From Candidatus Fimenecus sp. (GTDB lineage Bacteria; Bacillota; Clostridia; Oscillospirales; Acutalibacteraceae): a DNA stretch of 51,114 bases. Of the stretch, positions 29,605 to 43,808 are shown one piece after another (position 1 is the stretch's first letter; the number at the start of each line of letters is the position of its first letter). The DNA is taken from NCBI GenBank assembly GCA_045631075.1, contig JAZQUC010000017.1, forward strand, positions 1 through 51,114, read 5' to 3'. Under the pieces are notes generated by a model, which saw only the letters and a list, made by a program, of their open reading frames with translations, made no database searches and was not told the origin of the DNA. The translations under genes were made by a program, and so were the position numbers.

Positions 29605-29657
29605 TTATAGTTGAAGTACATATAATAATCAAAAGACATTAAAAGGATGTGATTGTT

Positions 29658-30629
29658 ATGTGTACTTCTGTTTCTTTTTTGACGAAGGAACACTACTTTG
29701 GCAGAACACTTGATATGGAAATCTCTTATAATGAAAAAGTGATAATAACGCCTAGAAATTTCAATTTGAAATTTAGATTATCAAATGATTTGAATAATCA
29801 TTATGCTATTATTGGAATGGGTATAGTGGTTGATAATTACCCGTTGTATTATGATGCAACCAATGAAAAAGGATTGTCGGTTGCAGGGTTAAATTTTCCC
29901 GTAACAGCAAGGTACAATGAGCCTGTAAATGACAAAAATAATATTGGTGTTTTTGAATTGATACCATGGATATTAGGAAATTGTTCATCTGTTGATGAAA
30001 CTCGTGAATTGCTTACCGAAACCAATATTATCAATATAGATTTTAACGAAAAATATAAATCAGCACAGCTTCATTGGATGATTTCTGACAGAGATTATTC
30101 CATTGTTCTTGAATGCACAGAAAATGGTATGAAAATTTATTATAATCCCGTTCATATTCTTACAAATAATCCTGAATTTCCTTTGCAGGTATTTAATATT
30201 AATAATTTTATGAATATTACTCGTGAAGAGCCTGAAACACGGTTTGCAGAAGGCTTTGACCTAAATAAATACAGCAGGGGAATGGGCGCTATTGGTTTGC
30301 CAGGTGATTTGTCATCAATGTCACGATTTGTCCGAGCATCATTTACAAGATTAAATTCAGTTTGTGGAAACACAGAAAGTGAGAGTATAAGTCAGTTTTT
30401 TCATATACTTGATACCGTTTCACAGACAAATGGTTGCGTCAGAGTTGGCGATAGCTTCGAAAAAACAGTGTACACTTCTTGTTGCAATACAGACAAAGGA
30501 ATTTATTATTATAAAACTTATAATAATAGTCAAATTTCAGCAGTAGATTTGTATCGTGAAAATCTTGACAGAAATGATTTGATATTATATAATCTCGTTG
30601 ATGAACAACAAATAAAATTTTATAATTAA
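29658..30629 (+). CDS. Choloylglycine hydrolase family protein (bile salt hydrolase / penicillin V acylase type Ntn hydrolase)
   Basis: Met-Cys start (MCTSVSF..HYFGRTLD), with the Ntn nucleophile Cys2. NEKGL..AGLNFP and later conserved blocks. About 323 aa. Confidence 0.88.
   Translation: MCTSVSFLTKEHYFGRTLDMEISYNEKVIITPRNFNLKFRLSNDLNNHYAIIGMGIVVDNYPLYYDATNEKGLSVAGLNFPVTARYNEPVNDKNNIGVFELIPWILGNCSSVDETRELLTETNIINIDFNEKYKSAQLHWMISDRDYSIVLECTENGMKIYYNPVHILTNNPEFPLQVFNINNFMNITREEPETRFAEGFDLNKYSRGMGAIGLPGDLSSMSRFVRASFTRLNSVCGNTESESISQFFHILDTVSQTNGCVRVGDSFEKTVYTSCCNTDKGIYYYKTYNNSQISAVDLYRENLDRNDLILYNLVDEQQIKFYN
30565..30593 (+). promoter_or_regulatory. Perfect consensus promoter TTGACA-17-TATAAT inside the 3' end of the hydrolase gene
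   Basis: TTGACA 30565-30570, 17-nt spacer, TATAAT 30588-30593. Confidence 0.6.
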
Positions 30630-30726: not shown

Positions 30727-31413
30727 ATGAAAAAGATACTTAATTATTTTACAAAATTTGAAATCGGACTTTGGTCTGTATCTGTCTTGTTAATTATTAT
30801 TTCATTTTTTATGCTTAAACAAACTGATTACCTAACTCTTTCAGCCTCTTTAATAGGTGCAACATTCTTAATTTTCAATGCAAAAGGAAATCCTATTGGT
30901 CAATTTTTAACAATTATATTCAGCTTACTTTATGGAATTATTTCATATAGATTTTCATATTACGGTGAAATGATTACATACCTTGGAATGTCAATGCCTA
31001 TGGCATTTCTTGCACTTGTTTCATGGCTTAAAAATCCTTACAAAAACAAATCTCAAGTTAAAGTGAATAGGCTAAAAAGAAAAGAAACTATTTTAATGTT
31101 CCTGTTGACAGGCATAGTAACTGTTATTTTCTATTTTATTTTAAAGCATTTCAATACTGCAAATCTTATTCAAAGTACTATTTCGGTAACAACCAGTTTT
31201 TTAGCTGTTTATCTCACATTCAGACGAAGTCCGTATTTTGCTCTTGCATATGCTTTGAACGACTTGGTATTGATTGTTTTGTGGGTGTTGGCAAGTATTA
31301 CTGACATTACATACATTTCTGTTGTCATATGTTTTATTGTATTCTTTGTGAATGATTTGTATAGTTTTGTAAATTGGAAGAAAATGGAGAAAAATCAAAA
31401 ATTAAATATGTAA
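30727..31413 (+). CDS. pnuC: Nicotinamide riboside transporter PnuC family
   Basis: 228 aa with about 7 TM segments. Characteristic L..A.G....Q...I..S..Y....Y....YGE and W.KN blocks. Confidence 0.85.
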   Translation: MKKILNYFTKFEIGLWSVSVLLIIISFFMLKQTDYLTLSASLIGATFLIFNAKGNPIGQFLTIIFSLLYGIISYRFSYYGEMITYLGMSMPMAFLALVSWLKNPYKNKSQVKVNRLKRKETILMFLLTGIVTVIFYFILKHFNTANLIQSTISVTTSFLAVYLTFRRSPYFALAYALNDLVLIVLWVLASITDITYISVVICFIVFFVNDLYSFVNWKKMEKNQKLNM

Positions 31414-31823: not shown

Positions 31824-33170
31824 CTATTTTGTCAAAACTCCGCCATCGCTGTACAAAAGAAGTAAAATATTATTTTCCTCACCGCTTTCGCAATCTATAT
31901 ATACAAGCAATTCTTGTCTTGAATCTGTCTTACAATGAAATTCATAACAAAGCTGTTCTGTTTTCCATTCTGTAGGTATAACACAAATTTGTGAATCAAT
32001 AACTGTGAGATGATTGTTTAACTTATTCTCTGCGTCTTTAAGCGACAACTTTCTATTAAGTTTTTGTCTTTCAGTATGATTTGAAATGTATCCTGAAGCA
32101 TCAAAGGATATAATATTACCAGTTTCAAGGCATACGCTGACTTTAATAAGGTCAGGATACATTGTTACATCGTCTTCTTCAAATGCAAAATTTATAGTAC
32201 ATATTCCGTCATCAGTAAAATAATAGCTTTCTTCCATATCGTCATATCCAATTTTTTCAAGGAAATCATCAGCATATCTTATTGCATCTTCATATTTTAC
32301 TTTCATTTCACCTGAAAACTCTGAACTCAACATATAACAAGGCTTACCGCCTTGCTTTGTTATTGCAACAGTGTATTTTTCTCCTTTAAAAACATAACAG
32401 GGAATATCACCGTCTTCTTCGTGCGAAAAAGAAAGAATATCTTTTTCCATATTACAAACAGTCTTTGCAATTTTCAAAGCATCCTCTTTACTGATTTCTT
32501 TAAGACCTTCTAAAAACTTTGGTTTACTTTGAGTAAGATGGTCAGAAAAAGGACCGTCATAAATAAGTGTTGGAATATCTGTCATAGCTTGTTCTGTATC
32601 ATCAAAGCTATTACCAATTGACTGTATTTCAGTGCTTGTATTTAATAGAGTAGAAGATGAATCATCAAAGAGAAAGTTTCCGTTCTGCATATCGTGGCAC
32701 ATTTGATTTACTTTATCGTTCAGATTTCTACAAAGGGAATTTAGTTGTTTAAGTTGTTCTCGTTCTTTATCGGTCAACTGTTCGCCTAATGCACTTTTTC
32801 GTTCAAGAGACATTACAAATTCTCCGATTTGTGATAAAAATTTGTAAGTGTTACTTATTGTGTTTTCACCTGTTGGTAAAATTGAAAGATTATTTTTGGC
32901 ACCTGATGCCTCTCGCCATAATTCAGCAGAAAGTTTTGATAGCATTGTGGGAGTGCTGACATAAATAGTTTTTTCAAGATTTGTCGAAATGTTGTTAAGG
33001 TTTTCATCCAAAGCTATCAGTGCCATTTGTCTTAGTATCATTGTTTCTTTTTCATATCTGTTTGCTTTTACAGTTTGAACAATTGAAAATATACCTAAAA
33101 CAACAATCAGTGTAGTTGAATATAGTATAATTCGTGCTTTGACGCGTGTTGAAATGTTGATTTTTTCCAT
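31824..33170 (-). CDS. ypeB: Germination protein YpeB-like (N-terminal TM helix, PepSY-type C-terminal repeats)
   Basis: About 448 aa from MEKINIST (RBS AAGGAG). Single TM helix. The conserved region LSKLSAELWREASGAKNNLSILP and overall architecture resemble YpeB. Confidence 0.6.
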   Translation of the reverse strand: MEKINISTRVKARIILYSTTLIVVLGIFSIVQTVKANRYEKETMILRQMALIALDENLNNISTNLEKTIYVSTPTMLSKLSAELWREASGAKNNLSILPTGENTISNTYKFLSQIGEFVMSLERKSALGEQLTDKEREQLKQLNSLCRNLNDKVNQMCHDMQNGNFLFDDSSSTLLNTSTEIQSIGNSFDDTEQAMTDIPTLIYDGPFSDHLTQSKPKFLEGLKEISKEDALKIAKTVCNMEKDILSFSHEEDGDIPCYVFKGEKYTVAITKQGGKPCYMLSSEFSGEMKVKYEDAIRYADDFLEKIGYDDMEESYYFTDDGICTINFAFEEDDVTMYPDLIKVSVCLETGNIISFDASGYISNHTERQKLNRKLSLKDAENKLNNHLTVIDSQICVIPTEWKTEQLCYEFHCKTDSRQELLVYIDCESGEENNILLLLYSDGGVLTK

Positions 33171-33299
33171 TAAAATGAACTCCTTTAAACATTTGGAAAT
33201 ATTATTCACAAAAAATTTAAATTTATGCCTAAAAATATTCAATTTTTATTTGCCAAATCATAGTTTTTGTAGTATAATTACTATGTTTAAGTATGTAAA

Positions 33300-34442
33300 A
33301 TGGGGGCGAAGAATTTGAGCGTTTATCTTGATAATAGTGCAACAACAAAACCGTGTGAAAAATCGGTGAAAAAAGCACTTGAAATGATGAACGAGAAATT
33401 CGGTAATCCGTCATCACTTCATTTGTGTGGCTTTAATGCTAAAAAAGAAATTGACACTGCTCGTCATACAATTTCTTCATTTTTAGGGTGCGAGGATAAA
33501 GAAATTTTCTTTACTCCAAGTGGCACTGTTGCCAATAATACCGCAATTTTTGGTACGGCTAAAGCAAAATGTCGTGAAGGCAAAAAAGTAATAACAACTA
33601 TGTTGGAACACCCAAGCGTGCTTAAATGCTTTGAAAATCTTGGTGAACAGGGCTTTGATGTTGTTTATCTTAAGCCTGATATTAACGGAAAAATCAATCT
33701 TGATGAGTTATCAAATACTGTTGATGAAAACACGATTCTTGTAAGTATTATGGCAGTTAATAATGAGGTTGGTTCCATTCAGGATTTTGCAAAAGTAAAA
33801 AGTATTATTAAAAACAAAAAATCAAAGGCATATTTTCATTGTGATGCTGTTCAGGCTTTTGGTAAGATTCAAATAAAACCTAAAAAACTTGGAATTGACC
33901 TTATGAGTATGAGTGCTCATAAAATTCACGGAGTGAAAGGTTCTGGTGCATTGTTTGTTAACAGCAATGTCCGTATTTCACCATATATCTTTGGTGGTGG
34001 TCAGGAAAATGGAATGGTTTCTGGTACTGAATCAACTCCAATGATATGTGCTTTTGCTGAAGCAGTAGGGGATATTGGTAATGTTGAGAGAAATCTTCAC
34101 AATGTTACGGCTGTAAGGAATTACTTTGTTAATAAAATTAATGATGTTGACAAGGTTTATATAAATTCTCCACAGGACGCCTTACCATATATTATCAACA
34201 TTTCCGTTGAGGGTGTACCATCACAGGTTATGCTCAATTCACTTTCTTCAATGGGGATTTATGTTTCAGCAGGTTCTGCCTGTGCTAAGGGTCACAGAAG
34301 TGATGTTTTGACAGCAATGGGCGTATCACCAGCAGGAATAGACAGTGCTATAAGAATAAGTTTGTCAAAATTTACCACGGAAAATGATATGGATTTGTTG
34401 TATAATGGAATAATCGAAACCATTAACCGTGTCAGGAGATGA
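33300..34442 (+). CDS. Cysteine desulfurase (NifS/IscS-like, class V aminotransferase)
   Basis: YLDNSATT N-terminus, SAHKIHG.KG PLP-lysine motif and GSACA..H active-site Cys loop. Confidence 0.9.
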   Translation: MGAKNLSVYLDNSATTKPCEKSVKKALEMMNEKFGNPSSLHLCGFNAKKEIDTARHTISSFLGCEDKEIFFTPSGTVANNTAIFGTAKAKCREGKKVITTMLEHPSVLKCFENLGEQGFDVVYLKPDINGKINLDELSNTVDENTILVSIMAVNNEVGSIQDFAKVKSIIKNKKSKAYFHCDAVQAFGKIQIKPKKLGIDLMSMSAHKIHGVKGSGALFVNSNVRISPYIFGGGQENGMVSGTESTPMICAFAEAVGDIGNVERNLHNVTAVRNYFVNKINDVDKVYINSPQDALPYIINISVEGVPSQVMLNSLSSMGIYVSAGSACAKGHRSDVLTAMGVSPAGIDSAIRISLSKFTTENDMDLLYNGIIETINRVRR

Positions 34443-34444
34443 AT

Positions 34445-35617
34445 ATGAAAGAGATTATATTAATTAAGAACGGTGAGTTAGCTTTAAAGGGTCTTAACCG
34501 TTCCACATTTGAAGATATTTTAATTAAAAATATTCGCAAACGCATTAAACCTTTAGGTGAATTTGAATATAGAAAAGAGCAATCAACAATTTCTGTTGTT
34601 CCTATGGATGATTACATAGATATGGATGAAGTCAGTGACAGAATTAGTCGTGTTTTCGGTATTGCAGCATATTCAAGAGCCTTACAGGTCGAAAAAGATA
34701 TGTCAGTCATTCTTGAGAATGCGCCTGATTATCTTGCTGAACAGTTAAGAGAAGCAAAAACATTTAAGGTTGAGGGTAAGCGTTCTGATAAAAAATTCCC
34801 TCTTAAATCACCTGAGATTTCTGCTGAAGTTGGTGGAGCAATTTTAAGTAAATTCCCTCACTTGAAGGTTGATGTTAAAAATCCTGATATCCTTGTTACG
34901 ATTGAGATAAGAGAAAAATTTGCTTTTATCCGTGGTAATCAGACAAAGGGTGCTGGTGGTATGCCAACAGGTACAGCAGGAAAATCAGCAATCTTAATTT
35001 CTGGTGGAATTGATAGTCCTGTTGCTGCATATATGATGGCAAAGCGTGGACTTGTGCTTAATGCAATTCATTTTGCTTCACCACCATATACATCACCACA
35101 GTCTGAGGAAAAGGTTCACAATCTTCTTCGTAAGGTTTCAAGATACAGCGGAAATATCTGTTTATTTACAGTCGGATTTACAGAAATTCAGGAAGAAATA
35201 AGAGATAAATGTCCTGAGGAATTGTTTACTCTTATTATGCGTCGTTTTATGATGCGAATTTCTAACCGAATTGCCGAGCGTGAAGATTGCAAAGCACTTA
35301 TAACCGGTGAAAGTCTTGGTCAAGTAGCAAGTCAGACACTCAATGCTCTTGCTTGTACTGATGCAGTTGTTGAAATGCCTGTATTCAGACCATTGATTGG
35401 TCTTGATAAGGATGAAATTATTAAGGTTTCAAGAAAGATTGATACATTTAATATTTCTATCGAGCCTTATGAAGATTGCTGTACAGTATTTACTCCAAAG
35501 CATCCTAAAACAAGACCACAGATATCAATTATTGAAACAGCTGAACAAGCACTTGATATTGAAGGTCTTATTGAAAGAGCAATAGCAAATACAACAATCA
35601 ATAATATTTGTTTTTAA
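34445..35617 (+). CDS. thiI: tRNA 4-thiouridine synthase ThiI
   Basis: MKEIILIKNGELALKG start, THUMP region and PP-loop LISGGIDSPVAAY. It follows the cysteine desulfurase, as usual. Confidence 0.93.
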   Translation: MKEIILIKNGELALKGLNRSTFEDILIKNIRKRIKPLGEFEYRKEQSTISVVPMDDYIDMDEVSDRISRVFGIAAYSRALQVEKDMSVILENAPDYLAEQLREAKTFKVEGKRSDKKFPLKSPEISAEVGGAILSKFPHLKVDVKNPDILVTIEIREKFAFIRGNQTKGAGGMPTGTAGKSAILISGGIDSPVAAYMMAKRGLVLNAIHFASPPYTSPQSEEKVHNLLRKVSRYSGNICLFTVGFTEIQEEIRDKCPEELFTLIMRRFMMRISNRIAEREDCKALITGESLGQVASQTLNALACTDAVVEMPVFRPLIGLDKDEIIKVSRKIDTFNISIEPYEDCCTVFTPKHPKTRPQISIIETAEQALDIEGLIERAIANTTINNICF

Positions 35618-35627
35618 GAGGTAGTTT

Positions 35628-36107
35628 ATGAAACTTGAAGAAAAGGTTGTAAAACTGCTTCGTGAAAAAAATCTTGTGCTGTCTTGTGCTGAATCATGCA
35701 CTGGTGGTCTTATAGCAAAGAGAATTACAGATGTCAGTGGTTCATCTGCAGTTTTTAATTGTGGAATAGTCAGTTACAGTAATGAGATTAAAGAAAAAGT
35801 TCTTAATGTTAAGAATGATACGTTAAAAGAGTTTGGTGCAGTCAGTGAACAAACTGTTCGTGAAATGGTGAACGGAGTTCTCACTGTTTCAGGTGCTGGT
35901 ATTGCAGTTTCAGTATCAGGGATTGCAGGACCAAATTCTGATAATACCGATAAACCTGTCGGTTTAATTTATTTAGCAGTTTCCAACGGTGAAACAACCG
36001 TTGTTAAGAAATTGAATAATCAGTTCACAACTGATGTTAGAAACAGTAACAGAATAAGTGCTTCAGATGAAGCTCTTAAAATGATTATAGAAATGATAGG
36101 AGAATAA
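35628..36107 (+). CDS. Stand-alone CinA C-terminal domain protein (nicotinamide-nucleotide amidase PncC type)
   Basis: 159 aa. LSCAESCTGGLIA..IT...GSS.VF.CG.V.YSNE.K and SGIAGP motifs. No N-terminal MoCF-like domain. Confidence 0.88.
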   Translation: MKLEEKVVKLLREKNLVLSCAESCTGGLIAKRITDVSGSSAVFNCGIVSYSNEIKEKVLNVKNDTLKEFGAVSEQTVREMVNGVLTVSGAGIAVSVSGIAGPNSDNTDKPVGLIYLAVSNGETTVVKKLNNQFTTDVRNSNRISASDEALKMIIEMIGE

Positions 36108-36109
36108 CT

Positions 36110-37015
36110 ATGGAAAAGAAAAATAATGCTGTTGTAAAAAAAGTCATTATTGCAGTTGTAGTTGCTATATTACTTATTTCTGCAATATTTTTGACAAAAT
36201 TCTTTATTGACCAGAAGAACGAACCATCAAATGGTGATGATGTTACAAATTCATCACAGGTACAAACAACTGAACCTGTTGCAAAACCTGACTATTCAGA
36301 ATATGTTGAACAGAATCCTGAAACAGTAGGTTGGATTTCAATTCCTGGTACACAAATTAACTTCCCTGTTGTTCAGTCAGTAGATAATGAATATTATCTT
36401 TCACACACATTTGACCATAAGTCAGATAAACGTGGTGCAATTTATATGGACTATCGTAACAATGCTGTTGACCTTGACGCAAATACTATTATTTATGGTC
36501 ACAACGATTACAAAGCTGGTAGTGTTTTCTCAGAAATTGCTTACTACGATGATATTGAATATTATAAAGAACACCCAATTATTGAGTTTAATACACTTGA
36601 AAGCTATTATCAGTGGAAAATCTATGCTGTGTTTATCACAAATCAGCAGGCATATGATGATAATGGATATATTTTCAACTTCATTTGGCCACAGATGGAA
36701 GGACCAAACTTCAAAGGTTATGTTGAAGAATTGAATAAGCGTACACTTTATTACACAGGCGTTGACATCAAGGATGGTGACAGAATTCTTACATTGTCAT
36801 CATGTGCAAGAAATCTTGATACAGCTGGAAATCGTGCGAAAACAAGTATCGTTGTTGTTGCCCGTGCAGTAAGACCAGGTGAAGATGCAACAGTTGATGT
36901 ATCAAGAGCATATGTAAATGAAAATCCAAAATATCCACAGCTTTATTACAACATAAAGGGTATTGCAAATCCATATAAGAATGATAAAAAGTGGTATCCT
37001 GTGGTGATTGACTAA
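36110..37015 (+). CDS. srtB: Class B sortase
   Basis: N-terminal TM anchor. GWISIPGTQINFPVVQ..DNEYYL.H, TIIYGHN (catalytic His), LTLSSC (catalytic Cys) and VVVARAVR (Arg). Confidence 0.85.
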   Translation: MEKKNNAVVKKVIIAVVVAILLISAIFLTKFFIDQKNEPSNGDDVTNSSQVQTTEPVAKPDYSEYVEQNPETVGWISIPGTQINFPVVQSVDNEYYLSHTFDHKSDKRGAIYMDYRNNAVDLDANTIIYGHNDYKAGSVFSEIAYYDDIEYYKEHPIIEFNTLESYYQWKIYAVFITNQQAYDDNGYIFNFIWPQMEGPNFKGYVEELNKRTLYYTGVDIKDGDRILTLSSCARNLDTAGNRAKTSIVVVARAVRPGEDATVDVSRAYVNENPKYPQLYYNIKGIANPYKNDKKWYPVVID

Positions 37016-38289
37016 TGGATAATAAAGAAAATAATTCAATGCTTTCTTTTGATAAACTTCGTGAGGGCTTAGGTATAGAAGGCGAATTACCGCAGGTTAA
37101 CGAACCTGAAAGACCTAAAGTTGTTGAAGATGTGAAATCGGTTTCAAAAAGTGATACACCAACAGGTGGTAAATCTGTTATTGAAAACGGTATTAAGTTT
37201 ATTGATATTACTGAACAATATACATCTTTTAATCAACCGACCGAAAAAGCAGAAGAAATTCCTGTAAAACAAGAGGAGAAAGTGGAACAGGTTATAGCAT
37301 CTGTTCCTGAAACACCTAAAAAGCGTGTTAAAACATTTGATGAAATATTTTCTGATTTTTTTGCAGTATTTCTTCCTGTTAAGAATGATAGCAGTAAAGA
37401 AAAAATCAGAAAAATCATAATGGATTTTTCAATTATTCTTATAATTGCTTGTTTTATAGGTTTTGTTCAACTTTTTATAGAACGAAGTGAACAATCATCT
37501 TTGGGCTCAGTTAATAACGCTGAATTAACTGACAAATTAAGTATTAATTCCTATAATGAGTCATGGAATGAAATTCTTTCTGATAGTTCATCAGTTTCTT
37601 TTCCTCAAGGTATGAAATCTCAATTTTCATATTTTTATAGTTCCAATAATGATATGGCAGGTTGGATTAAAATCAGCAACACCAATCTTGATGCTCAGGT
37701 TGTTCAAGGTGATAACAACGAATACTATAAAAATAAGGATTTCTATGGAAATGATAACAAATCAGGATGTCCGTATATTGATTACAAAAACGAAACATAT
37801 GAACTTGATGATAATACAATAATTTATGGACAAAATTCCAACAATAATCTTATGTTTTCTGTTCTTGAACAGTATAAGACTATTGAAGGATATAAAAATT
37901 CACCAATTATTGAATTCAGTACCTTATATAAATCATATACATTCAAGGTTTTTGCGGTGTTTATTGCGACTGACAGCCCTGTAAGTGATAATGGTTTTAG
38001 TTATACTGTTACTGATTTTATGTCTGACAATAAATTCGGTGAATTTATCAATGAAGTTAAAGTCAGAAGTCTTATTAATACGGATGTATCAGTACAGACT
38101 GATGATAAAATTTTGACTCTTGTTACTCCAACTCGTGAATTTGATAATGCACGACTTGTTGTAATGGGAAGAATGGTTCGTGAAAACGAATCACCTAATG
38201 TGAATGTGGATGGTGCAACTATTAATACATCACCAAAATATCCACAGGTTTGGTATGATAAAAAAGGTGAAAGCAATCCTTTTGCATAA
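37015..38289 (+). CDS. Sortase-B-like paralogue lacking catalytic His and Cys, with a long N-terminal cytoplasmic extension
   Basis: Start overlaps the srtB stop (TAATG). It aligns with SrtB as AGWIKISNTNLDAQVVQGDNNEYY, but has TIIYGQN (His to Gln) and LTLVTPT (Cys to Pro/Thr). Arg is retained (VVMGRMVR). Confidence 0.7.
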   Translation: MDNKENNSMLSFDKLREGLGIEGELPQVNEPERPKVVEDVKSVSKSDTPTGGKSVIENGIKFIDITEQYTSFNQPTEKAEEIPVKQEEKVEQVIASVPETPKKRVKTFDEIFSDFFAVFLPVKNDSSKEKIRKIIMDFSIILIIACFIGFVQLFIERSEQSSLGSVNNAELTDKLSINSYNESWNEILSDSSSVSFPQGMKSQFSYFYSSNNDMAGWIKISNTNLDAQVVQGDNNEYYKNKDFYGNDNKSGCPYIDYKNETYELDDNTIIYGQNSNNNLMFSVLEQYKTIEGYKNSPIIEFSTLYKSYTFKVFAVFIATDSPVSDNGFSYTVTDFMSDNKFGEFINEVKVRSLINTDVSVQTDDKILTLVTPTREFDNARLVVMGRMVRENESPNVNVDGATINTSPKYPQVWYDKKGESNPFA

Positions 38290-38333
38290 TAATTTAGCAG
38301 GTAAAAAGTAGGGAAAAGAGAGGTTATTTGAAT

Positions 38334-40403
38334 ATGAGAACAAAAGTGTTATCACTTAATGTTGACAGAAGTATGTCTTTTGCTCGTTTTCAGGCTCGTG
38401 TTGAAAGTAGTATAAACAACTATACTGATGATTGCGTCTTCCAGCAATTTGAAGATATCAGAGAAATGTTTGTTGCTTTACAGAGTGCACTTGAAAACGA
38501 TGAATTAATTCTCACTGCTGTTGATGTTAAAAATTATTTAAAATTTAAAAATGCGTTAATTCAGGCTTTTGGCACAGAGGTTGTATATAATTCAACTGTG
38601 TCAAAACGAGTTGAAAAATTAAGCCTTGATGATAAAAAGAAGCAAGCCTTTTCCGCTTTCCCTGAACCTGCAACTGTGTTTGCATCTGATGATGGACTTT
38701 ATTCAGGTTTTGCAATGGCTAACGGAAATCAGCATCTTATTCTTTTACCTATAGACAATTATAGAATTGATGAAATTTTAAGAAATGGTGTAATTCCTTA
38801 TCTTAATGAACAGTTAATGGCTAAATATGATGACATTGTTTTATCAACTGAAAAGCCTCCATTTTTCGATAAGGTTTCATTTGCTGTAAACAGTATTCTT
38901 GAATGTGATTCATTGGTTGCTGTTAACGGTACAAGAAATGCAGAGGTTTTAAAGAGCTGTGGCGATGAAGTTGTAGGTTTTGATAAAGCATTTGTATTTA
39001 CACCTTATGTTGAGGATAAAGGTAAGATTAATCCTACTGAATATACTGCACAGCTTGCAAGAGTAAGCCTTGATTTATCATCTGCAAAACTTGGTGCTTG
39101 CATCAGTGATATTTATACATCAAATGATGCTAAATATATTTGTATTGCAGTTTCTGATGGTGATTCAGCACTTGTAAGAAAACTTTATATGTCAGATAAT
39201 GAAACTGAACATGAGTTTGTTGAAAGTGCAGCAGTTGAGCTCATTGAACTTGTTGGTGAAAAGGTATCTGGTAAGAGAAGTGTTGGAATTGAAATTTCCG
39301 ATTCACAGGATAATGTTATTACAGATGATGATAAGAAAATTGCAAAGAAAAAGCCTCTTGCCATCCTTGCAATTGTTATAGGTCTTGTATTCATAGTTTG
39401 TGCAATCTTTGCTTTTATTTTCCAGCAGAATGTAAAAGACGATAATAAAGGTGATACACCAACTGAATCAACAACTAATCCTATAATTTCAACTACTGAA
39501 CCTACAACAGTTGGTTCTACAGCATATGATGAAAATATGATGAAACTTTCTGATTATCTTGTTTCAGCAATTATGAGTATGGATGAGGCAACAATTCAGA
39601 ATAATATTTCAGAGTATAGTAAAGATGTACCGGAGTTTATTACTGTTAATGGTAAACAAATTCCTGCAAAACAGGCACTTGCTCGTCTTGTTACAGCAGA
39701 AATTTCTAACGGATATAACTTTGATGTTGTAAAGGCATATACAGTTGCTACATATACTTGTCTTAAAGTAATCGGCAATGATTTTGTTCTTGATAATGTA
39801 AGAATTTCACAGGCAGCAAATGGTGTTGTTACTCGTGCTGTTGAAGATGTTTTTGGTGAATATCTTACATATAATAATTTCCTTGCTGTTCCTTTGTTCC
39901 ATAATCTTACAGCAGTAAATACTCTTGATATGTCAGCAAAATTACCATATCTTAAGAGCGTAAAATTAGAACGTCATCAGGATGTTAATGTTAGAACTTA
40001 CCAATCAAGCAAGGTTTATTCTCTTGATGAAATGAAAGCAATCTTGCTTAAAAACAACAGTTCTGTTGTTCTTTCTGAAAACCCTGCTGAATGGGTAGTA
40101 ATTAAAGAGCACGATGCTTCTGTTTCAGCAGATGTAGGTAATGTTAAATCTGTTGTTTTCAATGGTACTGAAATGACAGGTATTGAATTTAAAATGAAGG
40201 TAATGGGTGATGATAAGTTAGCGTCAATCTGTTTCCAGATTGTTTATAATGCAGAAACATCATCATTTATCGTTACAACATATGGTCAAGGATACGGAAT
40301 TGGTATGGGTCAGATTGGTGCAAAATATCTTTCAGTAAATGACCATGACTATACAGCAATTCTCACAAAGTATTATGAGGGAACAACAGTTACAAAGGGG
40401 TAA
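38334..40403 (+). CDS. Bitopic membrane protein: ~330-aa cytoplasmic domain, one TM helix, extracellular SpoIID/LytB-like domain
   Basis: TM helix PLAILAIVIGLVFIVCAIFAFIF. The C-terminal end YGQGYGIGMGQIGAKYLS....YT.IL.KYYEGTTV matches the SpoIID/LytB terminal motif. LARLVTAEIS resembles the catalytic-Glu block. Confidence 0.5.
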   Translation: MRTKVLSLNVDRSMSFARFQARVESSINNYTDDCVFQQFEDIREMFVALQSALENDELILTAVDVKNYLKFKNALIQAFGTEVVYNSTVSKRVEKLSLDDKKKQAFSAFPEPATVFASDDGLYSGFAMANGNQHLILLPIDNYRIDEILRNGVIPYLNEQLMAKYDDIVLSTEKPPFFDKVSFAVNSILECDSLVAVNGTRNAEVLKSCGDEVVGFDKAFVFTPYVEDKGKINPTEYTAQLARVSLDLSSAKLGACISDIYTSNDAKYICIAVSDGDSALVRKLYMSDNETEHEFVESAAVELIELVGEKVSGKRSVGIEISDSQDNVITDDDKKIAKKKPLAILAIVIGLVFIVCAIFAFIFQQNVKDDNKGDTPTESTTNPIISTTEPTTVGSTAYDENMMKLSDYLVSAIMSMDEATIQNNISEYSKDVPEFITVNGKQIPAKQALARLVTAEISNGYNFDVVKAYTVATYTCLKVIGNDFVLDNVRISQAANGVVTRAVEDVFGEYLTYNNFLAVPLFHNLTAVNTLDMSAKLPYLKSVKLERHQDVNVRTYQSSKVYSLDEMKAILLKNNSSVVLSENPAEWVVIKEHDASVSADVGNVKSVVFNGTEMTGIEFKMKVMGDDKLASICFQIVYNAETSSFIVTTYGQGYGIGMGQIGAKYLSVNDHDYTAILTKYYEGTTVTKG

Positions 40404-40409
40404 ATTAAT

Positions 40410-41429
40410 ATGAGTATTTTAGTTACAGGTGGCGCAGGTTTTATTGGTTCACACACTTGCGTTGAGCTTTTAAATGCAGGTTATGATGTTGTTGTTGTAG
40501 ATAATCTTTACAACTCAAGTGAAAAATCTCTTGACAGAGTAAAAGAATTAACAGGAAAAGATTTTTCATTCTATCCTTATGATATCCGTGATAAGGAGAA
40601 TATGAGAAAGGTTTTTGAAAATCATAATATTGATGCTTGTATTCATTTTGCAGGTCTTAAGGCGGTTGGAGAAAGCTGTGCAAAACCATTGGAATATTAT
40701 GATAATAATATTGGTGGCACACTTGCTCTTTGTGAAGTTATGAGAGAATACAATTGTAAAAAAATTGTTTTCAGTTCATCAGCGACAGTTTATGGTAGCA
40801 GTAACATTTCTCCACTTAAGGAAGATATGAAAACAGGTGGTACAACAAATCCATACGGTACTACAAAATATATGATTGAAATTATTCTTGATGATTTCCA
40901 TAAGGGTGATAATGAATGGGCAGTAACTCTTCTTCGTTATTTTAATCCAATCGGAGCACATAAGAGTGGTCGTATTGGTGAAAATCCAAATGGTATTCCA
41001 AATAATCTTATGCCATATATTACACAGGTTGCTATCGGTAAATTACCTTGCCTTAATGTATTTGGTGATGATTATGATACACATGATGGTACAGGTGTAA
41101 GAGACTATATTCACGTTGTTGACTTGGCGCTTGGTCACGTTAAAGCTGTTGAAAAAATCCTTAAGGATGAACCAAAGGTTAATATTTATAATCTTGGTAC
41201 AGGTAATGGATACAGCGTTCTTGATATTGTTAAGGCTTTTGAACAAGCTTCAGGACAGAAAATTAATTATAAAATTGCTCCTCGTCGTCCTGGCGACCTT
41301 GATGTTTGTTATTCAGATGCAACAAAAGCATTCAATGAACTTGGTTGGAAAGCTGAACGTGACCTTCTTGAAATGTGTGAAGATTCATGGAGATGGCAGA
41401 GCAATAATCCAAACGGTTTTGATGAATAA
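40410..41429 (+). CDS. galE: UDP-glucose 4-epimerase
   Basis: [13 protein letters not shown] Rossmann motif and YG.TK catalytic motif ([10 protein letters not shown]). 339 aa. Confidence 0.95.
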
Positions 41430-41442
41430 TTTAGTTTAAAGG

Positions 41443-42018
41443 GTGATTTTTGTGAAAAAAGGTTTAATTGTTGTTATTGCTATTGTTGCAGTAATTGCAA
41501 TTTTAGGCGGAAGTTTAGTTTCATCTTACAATGGTCTTGTTGATAAACAGGCAAATGTTGAAAATGCAGATGCACAGATTCAGGTACAGCTTCAACGCAG
41601 AGCTGATTTGATTCCTAACCTTGTAAATACAGTAAAAGCGTATGCATCTCATGAAGAAGATGTCTATACAGCACTTGCTGATGCTCGTGCTAAGCTTAAT
41701 TCTGCATCAAACCCTGAAGAATATAAGGAAGCAACAGATAGCTTTGATTCAGCTCTTTCAAGACTTTTAGTTGTTGTTGAAAATTATCCTGAACTTAAAG
41801 CAGACAAGAATTTTATTGCATTACAGGATGAACTTGCAGGTACAGAAAACAGACTTTCAACTGCAAGAAAGGATTACAATGATGTTGCAACAGAATATAA
41901 TGCTTCAATCAAAAAGTTCCCAACAGTAATTTTTGCTGGAATGTTTGGTTTTGAAAAAGTTGACTTATTCGAGGCATCAAGTGAATCACAGACTGCTCCA
42001 ACAGTAAACTTTGATTGA
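41443..42018 (+). CDS. lemA: LemA family protein
   Basis: N-terminal TM helix. YN.LV......V....A.I.VQLQRRADLIPNLV.TVK.YA.HE pattern. Start is GTG 41443 or GTG 41452. Confidence 0.88.
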   Translation: MIFVKKGLIVVIAIVAVIAILGGSLVSSYNGLVDKQANVENADAQIQVQLQRRADLIPNLVNTVKAYASHEEDVYTALADARAKLNSASNPEEYKEATDSFDSALSRLLVVVENYPELKADKNFIALQDELAGTENRLSTARKDYNDVATEYNASIKKFPTVIFAGMFGFEKVDLFEASSESQTAPTVNFD

Positions 42019-42029
42019 TTTTTAAAGAT

Positions 42030-42845
42030 ATGAAAAAGATAATTGTACTTTTATGTACCTTATTTTTAATTTCTTCACTGACTTTTTCATCTTATGCAAT
42101 ATCATTGCCTGAACCAACAAATGATTTCTTTGTGAATGATTTTGTTAATATTATTGATGATATTGATGAATCAGAGATTATGAAGATTGGTGCTGATTTA
42201 TACGAACAAACCAATGCTCAGATTGTTGTTGTCACAATTGATTCACTCGATGGGTACGATGTTGATGAGTATGCACTTGAGCTTGGCCGTAAATGGGGCG
42301 TAGGAAACGAAGATAGTGATAACGGTGTTGTTATCTTACTTTCTCTTTCTGACCGTCAAATCTCAATTCAGGTCGGATATGGCTTAGAAGGTTGTCTTAA
42401 TGATGGTAAGGTCGGCAGAATTCTTGATGATTATGCTATTCCATATTTAACCGTTGATGATTTTTCAACAGGGCTTACAGAAGCATATAAAGCAGTTGCT
42501 TATGTTGTTTGTGAGGAATATGGTGTTGAGTTAAATGCTGAATATGAAATTCAGAATTATGATACTTATGAATCTGATTCAGAAGACATTGGTGAAGATG
42601 TACTTGGTGGACTTTTTATTGTAATTATAATTATTATAATTACAATAGTTGTTCTTAATAAATCCTTTGATGGAGACTCTAATAATGGTGGCTCGCATCA
42701 CGGTGGTGGAAGATATTATGGTGGTCCAACAATATACCGTGGAGGATTTTCAGGTGGCTCACGAGGTGGATTTTCCGGCGGAGGTGGTGGCTTCCGTGGT
42801 GGTGGAGGTTCATTCGGTGGCGGTGGCGCATCAAGAGGGTTCTGA
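42030..42845 (+). CDS. TPM-domain (YgcG-like) membrane protein with Gly-rich tail
   Basis: Signal/TM N-terminus, then V.D.....I......I.......L....T.AQIVVVTI.SL and GVVILLS..DR.I.IQVGYGLEG. A TM helix is followed by a GGFSGG-rich C-terminus. Classical LemA-TPM gene pair. Confidence 0.8.
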   Translation: MKKIIVLLCTLFLISSLTFSSYAISLPEPTNDFFVNDFVNIIDDIDESEIMKIGADLYEQTNAQIVVVTIDSLDGYDVDEYALELGRKWGVGNEDSDNGVVILLSLSDRQISIQVGYGLEGCLNDGKVGRILDDYAIPYLTVDDFSTGLTEAYKAVAYVVCEEYGVELNAEYEIQNYDTYESDSEDIGEDVLGGLFIVIIIIIITIVVLNKSFDGDSNNGGSHHGGGRYYGGPTIYRGGFSGGSRGGFSGGGGGFRGGGGSFGGGGASRGF

Positions 42846-42848
42846 TTT

Positions 42849-43436
42849 ATGAGAGTATTTGATTTTGATAATACGATTTATGATGGCGAAAGTATAATGG
42901 ATGTTTTTCTTTATTTTTTAAAGAAGGATTTTAAAACCATTATAAGATTTGCACCAAAATTTATTAAGGATTTTATCCGTTATAAATTAGATAAAATCAC
43001 TGTTGAAGAAGCAATGGAAAGCTACGGAAAAGCTTTTAAAGAATATTGCCAGAAATATGATAATATCTATGATGAATTTGAAAAGTTCTGGGATTTGAAC
43101 GAGCATAAAGTAAAAGATTTTTATGCTCAAATTCAGGATGAAGAAGATATTGTAGTTTCAGGTTGTCCATATTGTCTTTTAAAAATTATATGTGACAGAA
43201 TTGGCATAAAACATTACATAGGTTCTGATATTGACCCTATTAAGGGTGAAATAAACAGTATATGCTATAAGGAACATAAACTTGAAGTTTTTCGTTCTGT
43301 ATATGGTGATGTCATTATCGATGATTTTTATACAGATTCAATGGCTGATAAACCTATGATGGATATTTCAAAAAATGTCTTTATGGTAAAGGGTAATCAG
43401 ATTACTCAAACTAAAAAAGACGGTATTACAATATAA
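42849..43436 (+). CDS. HAD-superfamily (IB-like) hydrolase
   Basis: Motif I FDFDNTIY at the N-terminus. C-terminal DS..D motif (YTDSMADKPM). Confidence 0.7.
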   Translation: MRVFDFDNTIYDGESIMDVFLYFLKKDFKTIIRFAPKFIKDFIRYKLDKITVEEAMESYGKAFKEYCQKYDNIYDEFEKFWDLNEHKVKDFYAQIQDEEDIVVSGCPYCLLKIICDRIGIKHYIGSDIDPIKGEINSICYKEHKLEVFRSVYGDVIIDDFYTDSMADKPMMDISKNVFMVKGNQITQTKKDGITI

Positions 43437-43770: not shown

Positions 43771-43775
43771 TTTTA

Positions 43776-43808
43776 TAACAGAGTGCTTATGTGCTCTGTT
43801 ATTTTTTT
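43776..43808 (+). terminator. Terminator after rnpB
   Basis: AACAGAG..CTCTGTT stem followed by ATTTTTTT. Confidence 0.65.

What the first reader, a model, noticed from the sequence alone, without database searches (positions are those of the whole stretch)
35628..40403. Conserved-looking cluster: PncC-only CinA, sortase pair, and a bitopic protein with a possible degenerate CinA-N domain fused to a SpoIID-like domain
Four tightly packed co-directional genes have gaps of 2, -1 and 44 nt. They link a stand-alone CinA C-terminal (PncC) domain, the sortase pair and a 689-aa protein. That protein ends in the SpoIID/LytB signature (YGQGYGIGMGQIGA...YT.IL.KYYEGT) outside the membrane. Its cytoplasmic N-terminal ~170 aa show a pattern-level resemblance to the CinA N-terminal MoCF-type domain: ELILTAVDV....L..AFG.EVVYN, KKQAFSAFPEPATVF and NQHLILLP. 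The GGLGPT motif is missing. If this holds, CinA has been split and its N-domain repurposed as the cytoplasmic module of an envelope-remodelling protein. The combination may constitute an uncharacterised cell-wall or spore-cortex processing system. The N-domain resemblance is my weakest claim.
Basis: inference. Interest (0 to 1): 0.7.

Follow-up and report, generated by a model that had tools for sequence, protein, structure and literature searches.

The report
Dead CinA–SpoIID protein with sortases
An uncultured gut Clostridium encodes a membrane protein that joins a catalytically disabled copy of the NAD-recycling enzyme CinA (inside the cell) to a SpoIID-type cell-wall-cutting domain (outside). 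It is always encoded next to a pair of class-B sortases, which points to a conserved but unstudied cell-envelope system.

Summary
In detail: four co-directional ORFs with gaps of 2, -1 and 44 nt.

- **ORF1** is an intact PncC-only CinA.
- **ORF2** is a class-B sortase with its His/Cys/Arg triad.
- **ORF3** is a class-B sortase fold with His->Gln and Cys->Pro. It is a pseudo-sortase under purifying selection.
- **ORF4** (689 aa) has a complete SpoIID fold outside the membrane with the catalytic Glu retained.

The whole cytoplasmic part (residues 1-332) is a two-domain CinA homologue (MoCF-like plus PncC-like, KH linker deleted). The evidence is Foldseek E 8e-12 to T. thermophilus CinA and hhalign 99.6 % against genuine CinAs. 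The defining catalytic motifs of both domains are replaced.

The "split CinA" reading is wrong. Distant relatives keep a full-length CinA upstream of the same sortase-sortase-X unit, so ORF4 carries a diverged paralogue, and the window's PncC-only gene is a secondary truncation.

The conserved core is sortase paralogue(s) plus the CinA-like module. It was found in 9 of 10 distant contexts, with SpoIID fused, encoded separately or absent.

The family has 231 clusters at 50 % identity, no Pfam or NCBIfam model, and no literature that I could find. Function is inferred only.

The parts
35628..36107 (+). ORF1: stand-alone PncC (CinA C-terminal domain), a predicted active NMN deamidase
   Evidence: Pfam CinA 7.3e-52; TIGR00199 at 142.8 bits against a cut-off of 68.9. 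Alignment to Agrobacterium CinA (2a9s, E 1.8e-29) shows S31, C32, G46, S48, Y58, K63, S/T105-G106 and R145 all conserved (residue roles from PMC5384747).
36110..37015 (+). ORF2: class-B sortase with a short cytoplasmic N-terminus, one TM and an extracellular catalytic domain carrying His131 (YGHN), Cys232 (TLSSC) and Arg252
   Evidence: TIGR03064 at 156.1 bits against a cut-off of 153.75. PDB SrtB structures match at E 3e-30 to 1e-25. The triad was seen in alignments.
37015..38289 (+). ORF3: pseudo-sortase. It has a 135-aa cytoplasmic tail, a TM and a class-B sortase fold with His->Gln273 and Cys->Pro372; Arg380 is kept
   Evidence: S. aureus SrtB 1qwz at E 7e-33, with 'iiyGQn' aligned to 'ilyGHh' and 'tlvTPt' aligned to 'tlsTCe'. 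Pairwise alignment with ORF2. His/Cys loss is confined to the window's sub-clade. dN/dS of the sortase-fold part is 0.08-0.16.
37372..37413 (+). Juxtamembrane cytoplasmic motif of ORF3 (LPVKNDSSKEKIRK), immediately before the TM (about 37414-37479)
   Evidence: The same P-x-(K/R)-G-D-(S/T/N/G)-x-x-(E/Q)-x-x-(R/W)-K + TM pattern occurs in the sortase paralogue next to the CinA-like gene in L081, L083, L084, L087 and L089. It also occurs in the domain-less 238-aa protein of L088. This comes from direct reading of the sequences.
38334..38843 (+). ORF4 residues 1-170: MoCF/COG1058-like domain of the CinA-like module, with catalytic motifs lost
   Evidence: AF2 pLDDT 85. Foldseek: TtCinA 4uux at 8e-12, 3kbq at 1e-5, plus MogA/MoaB. 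hhalign 99.6 %. GGLGP->AV--D, Asp76->Tyr68, Glu156->Arg144 (residue roles from PMC3680494 and PMC4246079).
38865..39278 (+). ORF4 residues ~178-315: PncC-like domain of the CinA-like module, with catalytic and phosphate-binding residues replaced
   Evidence: Foldseek hits to PncC-only structures 5kvk, 5vu3, 6l19 and 2a9s. hhalign. Ser31->Thr200, Ser48->Asp217, Gly106->Asp259, Arg145->Glu290.
39357..39422 (+). ORF4 transmembrane helix (residues 342-363), preceded by a Lys-rich stretch (DKKIAKKKP), implying N-in/C-out topology
   Evidence: Hydrophobicity scan and sequence. The topology follows from the positive-inside rule and is an inference.
39534..40403 (+). ORF4 residues 401-689: complete SpoIID-type lytic-transglycosylase fold with catalytic Glu456 (nt 39699-39701). 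The motif reads GQGYGIGMGQ instead of GHGVGMSQ, and the Zn-binding turn of C. difficile SpoIID is absent
   Evidence: AF2 pLDDT 89.7, pTM 0.87. Foldseek 5i1t at 2.4e-16, TM 0.70; only SpoIID structures match. Profile against 5i1t at 1.3e-32 with Glu in register with E101 (role of E101 from PMC6221140).
33250..33278 (+). Best sigma-70-like promoter match, upstream of iscS; a possible start of the 10-gene array that contains the cluster
   Evidence: 11 of 12 matches. This is a consensus match only, and the total number of matches is not above the shuffles.
43775..43802 (+). Strongest intrinsic-terminator-like hairpin (12-bp stem plus a T run), after the last co-directional gene

Best explanation
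The locus encodes a conserved three-part membrane system of Oscillospirales-type Clostridia, sitting downstream of an ordinary NAD-salvage gene (pncC/cinA).

The parts are:
1. A class-B sortase (ORF2).
2. A second class-B sortase paralogue with a long cytoplasmic tail and a conserved juxtamembrane motif (ORF3). In this lineage it has lost its catalytic His and Cys but is kept by selection.
3. A bitopic protein (ORF4). Its cytoplasmic part is a diverged, catalytically disabled paralogue of the whole CinA enzyme. Its extracellular part is a SpoIID-type glycan-strand-cleaving domain that keeps its catalytic glutamate.

Shown: the homologies, the residue states, the topology elements, the conserved gene linkage across distant lineages, and the fused, split and SpoIID-less variants.

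Inferred: the three proteins form one complex. The dead-CinA module acts as a non-enzymatic cytoplasmic scaffold or regulator; CinA proteins are dimers. It would dock on the cytoplasmic tail or juxtamembrane motif of the ORF3-type paralogue. This would position or gate the extracellular activities: local cleavage or binding of peptidoglycan glycan strands by the SpoIID domain, and sortase-catalysed attachment of an unidentified substrate. The result would be coupled wall opening and protein anchoring at a defined site.

A specific role in sporulation is possible because the organism is a spore-former, but it is not indicated by any test made here.
For: **Homology of the cytoplasmic module to full CinA.**
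- Foldseek 4uux/4ct8 at E 8e-12 to 2e-10, spanning ~400 columns, followed by N-domain-only and PncC-only CinA structures.
- hhalign of a 132-sequence family profile against genuine CinAs: 99.6 %, E 1e-23, over both domains with the KH domain deleted.
- 3 of 80 family members still hit Pfam CinA_KH (3.3e-08) and 5 hit CinA.

**Loss of catalytic features family-wide**.

**SpoIID ectodomain.** Full fold with catalytic Glu. Glu is kept in 37 of 40 ectodomains of the wider family.

**Sortases**. Purifying selection on the pseudo-sortase, omega 0.08-0.16.

**Linkage.**
- 80 syntenic loci.
- In 10 contexts of distant family members, sortase-family genes lie immediately upstream in 9 (L081/82, L083, L084, L086, L087, L088, L089, L090, L091) although the other flanks differ.
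- Split forms with a separate SpoIID gene right after the CinA-like gene (L087, L089) give Rosetta-stone support for the fusion.
- L088 keeps only the cytoplasmic and membrane parts: a tail + motif + TM protein, a pseudo-sortase and a tail-anchored CinA-like protein. This points to a cytoplasmic/membrane core.
- The juxtamembrane motif is conserved across lineages.
Against: - No physical interaction has been tested.
- No sortase substrate with a C-terminal sorting signal is present in the window.
- In the window the cluster is embedded in a 10-gene array without internal terminators, so co-transcription is not specific to these genes.
- One distant family member (L085) has no sortase neighbour.
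- The CinA-like module keeps several strongly conserved polar residues (K72, D120, Q133, S/T258, E290; Thr at the nucleophile position in 59 %) and could still be an enzyme or a ligand sensor rather than a passive scaffold.
- In the window's clade the SpoIID motif His is replaced (GQGYG), so ectodomain activity is uncertain.
Confidence: 0.5

Rival explanations
1. ORF4 is simply this lineage's sporulation SpoIID (the engulfment lytic transglycosylase) with an accessory cytoplasmic domain, and the neighbouring sortases and pncC are functionally unrelated.
For: The ectodomain is a complete SpoIID fold with the catalytic Glu. It has bitopic N-in/C-out topology like SpoIID. The organism is a spore-former: ypeB lies next door and an M23+M50 pair resembling spoIVFA/FB is in the window.
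Against: - TIGR02870 (the SpoIID equivalog model) scores 74 bits against a cut-off of 234.75, and identity to solved SpoIIDs is only 20-22 %.
- The SpoIID domain is dispensable in the family, which includes tail-anchored and soluble forms in the same gene context.
- The ectodomain evolves faster than the cytoplasmic module.
- The sortase linkage persists across lineages with different flanks.
- No spoIIP or spoIIM lies nearby.

I could not check whether a canonical spoIID exists elsewhere in these genomes.
Confidence: 0.12
2. The adjacency is inherited gene order in a conserved housekeeping operon (iscS-thiI-cinA-...-galE-lemA) with no functional coupling among the sortases and ORF4.
For: Within Ca. 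Fimenecus the whole 11-gene block, not just the four genes, is syntenic. All intergenic gaps are small and there is no internal terminator.
Against: - In distant lineages the downstream and far-upstream flanks differ (EF-G, GFO/IDH, lexA, rRNA adenine dimethylase), yet sortase paralogue(s) plus the CinA-like gene stay adjacent.
- Domain fusion and fission between the CinA-like and SpoIID parts.
- Correlated loss of all extracellular catalytic parts in L088.
Confidence: 0.13
3. The CinA-like module is not a pseudoenzyme. It is a neofunctionalised hydrolase or a small-molecule sensor (for example of an NAD-derived or cell-wall-precursor nucleotide) that transduces cytoplasmic metabolic state to the extracellular domains.
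For: - The module is the best-conserved part of ORF4 (75 % mean column identity against 56 % for the ectodomain).
- Thr occupies the PncC nucleophile position in 59 % of the family, S/T is at the T105 position in 97 %, and a basic residue is near the Lys63 position in 67 %. K72 is 97 % and E290 86 % conserved.
- Genomic neighbours are NAD-salvage genes: pncC, or cinA in relatives, and pnuC 4 kb upstream.
Against: Residues whose mutation abolishes the known activities are replaced: Asp76->Tyr/Phe in 111 of 114, the GGLGP glycines->Val/Ala, Arg145->Glu/Asp in 96 % (PMC3680494, PMC5384747). Phosphate-binding positions have become acidic, which argues against a nucleotide ligand of the ancestral type.
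Confidence: 0.25

Closest known systems
CinA, the bifunctional COG1058 ADP-ribose pyrophosphatase / PncC NMN deamidase (Thermus thermophilus CinA, PDB 4CT8/4UUX; PMC4246079)
   Same: Same two catalytic-domain folds in the same order (MoCF-type then PncC-type). It is the top Foldseek hit and gives hhalign 99.6 %. Some family members still carry the CinA KH linker domain. A genuine cinA is the usual upstream neighbour.
   Different: - In ORF4 the KH domain is deleted.
- The GGL/IGPxxxD motif, Mg-binding Asp76 and ribose-binding Glu156 are lost.
- The PncC Ser nucleophile is Thr, and phosphate-binding Ser48 and Arg145 are Asp and Glu.
- No Pfam or NCBIfam model detects it.
- It is membrane-tethered and fused to an extracellular domain, which is not described for CinA.
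SpoIID, the sporulation engulfment lytic transglycosylase (C. difficile 5I1T, B. anthracis 4RWR; PMC6221140), and the septal SpoIID homologue of Waddlia (PMC6635528)
   Same: Bitopic topology, the full SpoIID fold (TM 0.70) and the catalytic Glu in register with E101.
   Different: - It scores far below the SpoIID equivalog and domain cut-offs.
- The GHGVGMSQ His is replaced in the window's clade.
- The Zn-binding turn of C. difficile SpoIID is absent.
- It has a 330-aa cytoplasmic CinA-like module instead of a short tail.
- It is linked to sortases rather than to SpoIIP/SpoIIM.
- In many relatives the SpoIID domain is circularly permuted, encoded separately or missing.
Class-B sortases (S. 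aureus SrtB 1NG5/1QWZ, B. anthracis 1RZ2, L. monocytogenes 5JCV, C. difficile 4UX7/5GYJ)
   Same: ORF2 and ORF3 are clear homologues (E 1e-22 to 1e-33), membrane-anchored by an N-terminal TM. ORF2 has the His-Cys-Arg triad.
   Different: - They occur as a paralogue pair.
- ORF3-type members carry 135- to 700-aa cytoplasmic extensions with a conserved juxtamembrane motif.
- One paralogue has independently lost His and Cys in at least three lineages: the window's clade, L081 and L088.
- No substrate gene with a sorting signal accompanies them, whereas the isd-type loci encode SrtB next to its substrate (from my own knowledge of those loci).
Catalytically inactive relatives used as precedent: the plant COG1058 subfamily lacking catalytic residues (PMC3680494) and the degenerate LytM domain of B. 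subtilis SpoIIQ in the engulfment complex (abstract of PMC4982068)
   Same: Enzyme folds are retained without catalytic residues and, in the SpoIIQ case, used as structural parts of a trans-envelope complex.
   Different: They differ in fold (SpoIIQ) or kingdom (plants). No membrane-tethered dead CinA has been described in the literature I could search.

Membership tests
PncC / NMN deamidase (CinA C-terminal domain) - ORF1 | Profile match above the curated threshold (PF02464; TIGR00199) | tested here: met
   175.5 bits against 23.5; 142.8 bits against 68.9
PncC / NMN deamidase - ORF1 | Ser31/Lys63 catalytic dyad, Arg145, Tyr58, Gly46/Ser48, Thr(Ser)105-Gly106 (AtCinA numbering, PMC5384747) | tested here: met
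   All positions are conserved in the alignment to 2a9s: 'AESCTGG', 'SGSS', 'YSNEIK', 'SGIAGP', 'DVR'
PncC / NMN deamidase - ORF1 | NMN deamidase activity | not testable with these tools
   Needs an enzyme assay
Full-length CinA (COG1058 + KH + PncC) - ORF1 | N-terminal MoCF/COG1058 domain and KH domain present | tested here: not met
   ORF1 is 159 aa and PncC only. thiI ends 10 nt upstream, leaving no room for a remnant. Relatives L083, L084, L086, L089 and L091 have the 411-422-aa three-domain form.
COG1058 / MoCF-type CinA N-terminal domain - ORF4 residues 1-170 | Fold | tested here: met
   Foldseek: TtCinA at 8e-12, 3kbq at 1e-5 (TMt 0.64-0.67), MogA/MoaB at 1e-3; hhalign 99.6 %
COG1058 / MoCF-type CinA N-terminal domain - ORF4 residues 1-170 | Signature motif GGL/IGPxxxD including Mg-binding Asp76 (PMC3680494, PMC4246079) | tested here: not met
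   'TAV--DVKNY': the glycines are Val/Ala, and Asp76 is Tyr68 (Tyr/Phe in 111 of 114 family representatives)
COG1058 / MoCF-type CinA N-terminal domain - ORF4 residues 1-170 | Signature motif GxExxxG (Glu12) and Asp45 | tested here: inconclusive
   ORF4 has N9-V-D11 and E40/D41 at roughly these places, but residues 1-38 lie outside the confident hhalign block and the positions vary across the wider family
COG1058 / MoCF-type CinA N-terminal domain - ORF4 residues 1-170 | Ribose-binding Glu156 of the LPGxPxE motif | tested here: not met
   'LPIDNYR': Arg144, and Arg/Lys in 75 % of the family
PncC domain - ORF4 residues ~178-315 | Fold and profile-profile homology | tested here: met
   Foldseek 5kvk, 5vu3, 6l19 and 2a9s at 3e-4 to 8e-4, TMt 0.53-0.70; hhalign. 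No Pfam or NCBIfam hit even at E<=1.
PncC domain - ORF4 residues ~178-315 | Ser31 nucleophile | tested here: not met
   Thr200. Family-wide: Thr 59 %, Asn 11 %, Ser 8 %
PncC domain - ORF4 residues ~178-315 | Lys63 general base | tested here: inconclusive
   hhalign pairs it with Glu227, but Lys229 (Arg/Lys in 67 % of the family) lies two residues away in a gapped region
PncC domain - ORF4 residues ~178-315 | Phosphate-binding Arg145 and Ser48 | tested here: not met
   Arg145->Glu290 (Glu/Asp in 96 % of the family); Ser48->Asp217
SpoIID/LytB lytic transglycosylase - ORF4 residues 401-689 | Fold | tested here: met
   Foldseek 5i1t at 2.4e-16, TM 0.70/0.71 over 296 columns; 4rwr at 1e-15. No other fold matches.
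SpoIID/LytB lytic transglycosylase - ORF4 residues 401-689 | Catalytic glutamate (E101 in C. difficile, PMC6221140) | tested here: met
   Glu456 is in register ('lvtaE' against 'vlagE'). It is conserved in 37 of 40 ectodomains of the family.
SpoIID/LytB lytic transglycosylase - ORF4 residues 401-689 | Curated model thresholds (TIGR02669 domain at 83.3 bits; TIGR02870 SpoIID equivalog at 234.75 bits) | tested here: not met
   65.9 and 74.1 bits
SpoIID/LytB lytic transglycosylase - ORF4 residues 401-689 | Conserved G-H-G-V-G-M-S-Q segment | tested here: inconclusive
   The window has YGQGYGIGMGQ, with His replaced and a 2-residue insertion. Distant family members keep GHGVGMSQ. I found no source stating whether this His is required.
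SpoIID/LytB lytic transglycosylase - ORF4 residues 401-689 | Role in engulfment together with SpoIIP/SpoIIM | not testable with these tools
   Needs genetics. No spoIIP or spoIIM is in the window.
Class-B sortase - ORF2 | Equivalog model threshold and the His-Cys-Arg triad | tested here: met
   TIGR03064 at 156.1 bits against 153.75; YGH131N, TLSSC232, R252
Class-B sortase - ORF2 | Substrate with a C-terminal sorting signal encoded nearby | tested here: not met
   No ORF of the 51-kb window has a motif + hydrophobic stretch + basic tail that is not simply a polytopic membrane protein. Substrates may be encoded elsewhere.
Class-B sortase - ORF3 | Homology and fold | tested here: met
   1qwz at 7e-33. 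TIGR03064 at 144.1 bits, just under the cut-off of 153.75.
Class-B sortase - ORF3 | Catalytic His and Cys | tested here: not met
   Gln273 and Pro372. Orthologues of the near sub-clade carry Q/N/P/S and P/T/S/D at these positions. More distant orthologues keep His and Cys: 141 of 154 sequences in the alignment (152 sortase-like ORFs from the 80 loci plus the two window proteins) are His/Cys.

The most novel reading that the evidence does not exclude
The sortase(-like) pair plus the dead-CinA module is a previously unrecognised trans-membrane device of gut Clostridia. In it, former enzymes serve as receptor or scaffold parts: a CinA fold inside the cell and a sortase fold outside. The cytoplasmic CinA-derived module would sense a metabolite or partner and control where and when the wall is cut (SpoIID domain) and proteins are anchored (active sortase). 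L088, where every catalytic ectodomain is gone but the cytoplasmic and membrane core is kept, would mean the core has a function of its own, independent of cell-wall enzymology, such as signalling or membrane-site marking.
Probability: 0.2. Interest if true: 0.8.

Novelty: new variant of a known kind. Interest (0 to 1): 0.62.

Why it matters
CinA is widespread but its cellular role beyond NAD recycling is poorly understood. A large family (231 clusters at 50 % identity) of membrane-tethered, catalytically disabled CinA paralogues, hard-wired to sortases and often to a SpoIID-type glycan cleaver, would be a new use of this fold.

It also gives a new handle on how Gram-positive anaerobes coordinate events on the two sides of the membrane during wall remodelling or surface-protein anchoring. 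It adds a case of repeated, independent conversion of sortases into maintained pseudoenzymes.

Practically, the family has no Pfam or NCBIfam model. These proteins are annotated 'hypothetical' or 'SpoIID/LytB domain-containing', which could inflate counts of sporulation genes in gut MAGs.

Tried and rejected
- **Narrow-profile PDB search.** A profile of only close homologues (A2) against PDB sequences gave no CinA hit, only importin noise at E>0.2. Homology became visible only with structure and with a wide family profile.
- **Direct family scans.** Pfam and NCBIfam scans of ORF4 show nothing for residues 1-400.
- **Split-CinA reading.** Rejected (see the first-reader verdict).
- **Sortase substrates.** I looked for sorting-signal proteins in the window. 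The only C-terminally hydrophobic ORFs are polytopic membrane proteins, and the two giant LRR proteins end in a Cys-rich tail and a dockerin.
- **Taxonomy.** The third homology search with the broad profile and two cluster look-ups were meant to give taxonomy or cultured hosts. They returned almost only unnamed MAG proteins.
- **Promoter scan.** Not informative: 64 matches against 56 +/- 6 in shuffles.
- **Literature.** Searches for SpoIID+sortase+CinA, pseudo-sortase and Fimenecus found no description of this system.
- **Lost script output.** One script call returned no output; its files were recovered.

Full report
**1. Observation.**
The four ORFs are real and at the stated coordinates:
- ORF1: 35628-36107, 159 aa.
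- ORF2: 36110-37015, 301 aa.
- ORF3: 37015-38289, 424 aa.
- ORF4: 38334-40403, 689 aa from the ATG. A GAGAGG RBS lies 10 nt upstream.

The tight packing is not special to these four genes. They lie inside a 10-gene co-directional array (iscS, thiI, ORF1-4, galE, lemA, a TPM-domain gene and a HAD gene; 33300-43436) with equally small gaps. The best promoter-like site is before iscS and the best terminator-like hairpin is at 43775-43802.

**2. The individual genes.**

*ORF1.* This is a PncC-only CinA (Pfam 7e-52; TIGR00199 above cut-off). Aligned to the mutagenised Agrobacterium enzyme (2a9s), it keeps Ser31, Lys63, Arg145, Tyr58, Gly46/Ser48 and Ser/Thr105-Gly106 (residue roles from PMC5384747). 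It is predicted to be active.

*ORF2.* This passes the SrtB equivalog threshold (156.1 against 153.75 bits). It matches solved SrtB structures at about 1e-30 and has the His-Cys-Arg triad.

*ORF3.* This is an equally clear SrtB homologue (1qwz, 7e-33), but Gln273 and Pro372 align with the catalytic His and Cys; Arg380 is kept. Across the 80 related loci, 141 of the 154 aligned sequences (152 sortase-like ORFs plus the two window proteins) keep His and Cys. Both are lost only in the ORF3 orthologues of the window's near sub-clade, with varied replacements (Q/N/P/S and P/T/S/D). The ORF remains intact, and its sortase-fold part has dN/dS of 0.08-0.16, like the active paralogue. It is therefore a maintained pseudoenzyme. 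ORF3 has a 135-aa cytoplasmic tail that ends in a juxtamembrane motif (LPVKNDSSKEKIRK) before its TM.

**3. ORF4 ectodomain.**
Residues 401-689 model confidently (pLDDT 89.7, pTM 0.87). In the PDB they match only SpoIID structures (5i1t at 2.4e-16, TM 0.70 over the full length). A profile of the ectodomain hits 5i1t at 1.3e-32, and Glu456 is in register with the catalytic E101 of C. difficile SpoIID (PMC6221140).

It is nevertheless far from canonical SpoIID:
- It scores 74 bits against the 234.75-bit cut-off of the SpoIID equivalog model.
- It is 20-22 % identical to solved SpoIIDs.
- The Zn-binding turn is absent.
- The motif reads GQGYGIGMGQ instead of GHGVGMSQ.

**4. ORF4 cytoplasmic part.**
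Residues 1-332 are the best-conserved part of the protein, yet they hit nothing in Pfam, NCBIfam or PDB by sequence. An AF2 model (pLDDT 85) gives these Foldseek hits, in order:
- Full-length Thermus thermophilus CinA (4uux, 4ct8; E 8e-12 to 2e-10), aligned across both domains.
- The N-domain-only CinA 3kbq.
- PncC-only structures (5kvk, 5vu3, 6l19, 2a9s).
- MogA and MoaB.

An exhaustive profile search found 231 cluster representatives of this module. A 132-sequence alignment of them compared with genuine CinAs gives hhalign 99.6 %, E 1e-23. It covers the MoCF-type and PncC-type domains, with the KH linker deleted in ORF4. Three of 80 members still hit Pfam CinA_KH (3.3e-08) and five hit CinA. 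Homology to the whole of CinA is therefore established, not just to its N-domain.

Measured against the defining residues (PMC3680494, PMC4246079, PMC5384747), both active sites are gone:

| CinA feature | State in ORF4 | State across the family |
|---|---|---|
| GGLGP motif | AV--D | glycines are Val/Ala |
| Mg-binding Asp76 | Tyr68 | Tyr/Phe in 111 of 114 |
| Ribose-binding Glu156 | Arg144 | Arg/Lys in 75 % |
| PncC Ser31 nucleophile | Thr200 | Thr 59 %, Ser 8 % |
| Ser48 | Asp217 | not determined |
| Gly106 | Asp259 | Asn/Asp |
| Arg145 | Glu290 | Glu/Asp in 96 % |

The Lys63 equivalent is ambiguous. The family has its own conserved set: K72, P110, D120-G121, S124-G125-F126, Q133, P139, G254 and E290.

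**5. Comparative genomics.**
Eighty loci from species-level genomes carry the block ypeB<- iscS thiI [pncC] srt srt ORF4 galE lemA tpm. They come from Ca. Fimenecus, 'Eubacterium sp. CAG:180', and Ruminococcaceae, Oscillospiraceae and Acutalibacter MAGs. Six loci (L012-L017) lack pncC, and some have three sortase paralogues.

I sampled ten contexts of distant family members. Sortase-family genes lie immediately upstream in nine of them:

| Locus | Arrangement |
|---|---|
| L083, L084, L091 | iscS-thiI-full-length CinA-Srt-Srt-X |
| L086 | the same, plus a coiled-coil protein; X is tail-anchored (363 aa) |
| L081/82 | CinA-pseudo-sortase (no His/Cys)-960-aa sortase-X |
| L087 | Srt-Srt-soluble X (329 aa)-separate membrane SpoIID-like gene-galE |
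| L089 | CinA-Srt-X (KH retained)-separate SpoIID gene |
| L088 | PncC-only CinA; a 238-aa protein that is only a tail + motif + TM; a pseudo-sortase (His->Gln, Cys->Ala); tail-anchored X without SpoIID |
| L090 | Srt-soluble X |
| L085 | no sortase neighbour |

These comparisons lead to four conclusions:
- (a) The conserved core is sortase paralogue(s) plus the CinA-like module.
- (b) SpoIID can be fused, separate or absent.
- (c) A genuine cinA usually lies upstream. Full-length is the common state, so the window's PncC-only gene is a secondary truncation.
- (d) Sortase paralogues have become pseudoenzymes independently at least three times.

The ORF3-type paralogue carries a conserved juxtamembrane motif in all these lineages.

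**6. Interpretation.**
The 'split CinA' idea is refuted, because ORF4 has both domains and coexists with full-length CinA in relatives.

My best explanation is a membrane complex of three proteins: an active class-B sortase, a second (here dead) sortase paralogue, and a bitopic protein. The bitopic protein's dead-CinA module would serve as a cytoplasmic scaffold or regulator, plausibly docking on the ORF3 tail and motif. Its SpoIID domain would cut or bind glycan strands outside. Everything about the interaction and the mechanism is inference.

Rivals:
- ORF4 is the lineage's real SpoIID. This is disfavoured by the model scores and by the dispensability of the SpoIID domain, but I could not look for a canonical spoIID elsewhere in the genome.
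- The gene order is mere inherited synteny. This is disfavoured by the varying flanks and by the fusion and fission events.
- The CinA-like module is a neofunctionalised enzyme or sensor. This remains open.

**7. Novelty.**
Every domain belongs to a known superfamily. The following have no Pfam or NCBIfam model, and I found no paper describing them:
- the dead-CinA family itself;
- its membrane tethering and fusion to SpoIID;
- its obligate linkage to sortase paralogues that repeatedly lose catalysis.

NCBI names these proteins 'hypothetical' or 'SpoIID/LytB domain-containing'. I rate it a new variant of known kinds with a real chance of being a new type of envelope system.

Noticed in passing
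window 30727-31413 (+): A PnuC-type nicotinamide riboside/NMN transporter gene (Pfam NMN_transporter, 5e-33) lies about 4 kb upstream of the PncC gene, separated from it by ypeB, iscS and thiI. Together with pncC this gives a local NAD-salvage theme.
   Followed up: no
L084 7001-9292 (P0151); also P0134, P0144, P0161, P0250; L087 8018-9370; L089 6470-7549: In many distant family members the SpoIID domain is circularly permuted. The 'GYGHGVGMSQ...YYPGT' segment, which is C-terminal in canonical SpoIID and in the window's ORF4, comes first. The catalytic-Glu part follows, and the protein ends at '...RSHCFxFxY'.
   Followed up: partly
L088 3053-7332: A minimal version of the system with no extracellular catalytic part. 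It has a 238-aa acidic tail + PLKGDG motif + TM protein without a sortase domain, a 737-aa pseudo-sortase (His->Gln, Cys->Ala), and a tail-anchored CinA-like protein without SpoIID. All lie downstream of a PncC-only CinA.
   Followed up: partly
L081 967-2961: This 664-aa protein, unannotated by Pfam, is a sortase-fold protein lacking both His and Cys, with a ~380-aa Lys/Glu-rich cytoplasmic region. It is an independent pseudo-sortase, and here it is the first rather than the second paralogue.
   Followed up: partly
L061, L064, L065, L067 (about 6400-9950 in L061): These loci carry three consecutive sortase paralogues, all with His and Cys, instead of two upstream of the ORF4 homologue.
   Followed up: no
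L012-L017 (e.g. L012 7761-7787): A sub-clade has lost the pncC gene altogether; thiI is followed directly by the first sortase gene. In the same sub-clade the second sortase keeps His and Cys.
   Followed up: partly
window 9096-10428 (+): Adjacent M23 peptidase-domain (245 aa) and M50 site-2-protease-domain (201 aa) genes resemble a spoIVFA/spoIVFB pair. Together with ypeB (31824-33242, TIGR02889 above cut-off) they indicate a spore-forming organism.
   Followed up: no
window 3185-6427 (+) and 23945-27343 (+): Two very large secreted BspA-type leucine-rich-repeat proteins. The second also carries a subtilase S8 domain and a C-terminal dockerin. The first ends in a Cys-rich tail, not a sortase sorting signal.
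   Followed up: partly
window 29649-30629 (+): A choloylglycine (bile-salt) hydrolase family gene (Pfam CBAH, 9e-104), consistent with a gut habitat.
   Followed up: no
window 41443-42845 (+): A LemA gene overlaps a gene with an N-terminal TM and a long Gly-rich C-terminal tail (GGSHHGGGRYYGG...GGGGFRGGGG). The pair is conserved downstream of ORF4 and galE in most of the 80 loci.
   Followed up: no
L086 4120-6117: A 665-aa Ala/Lys/Glu-rich coiled-coil protein with repeated 'AEKEKAEQEAKLAAQKAQ' units and no TM is inserted between the two sortase genes of this locus. It may be an extra cytoplasmic component.
   Followed up: no
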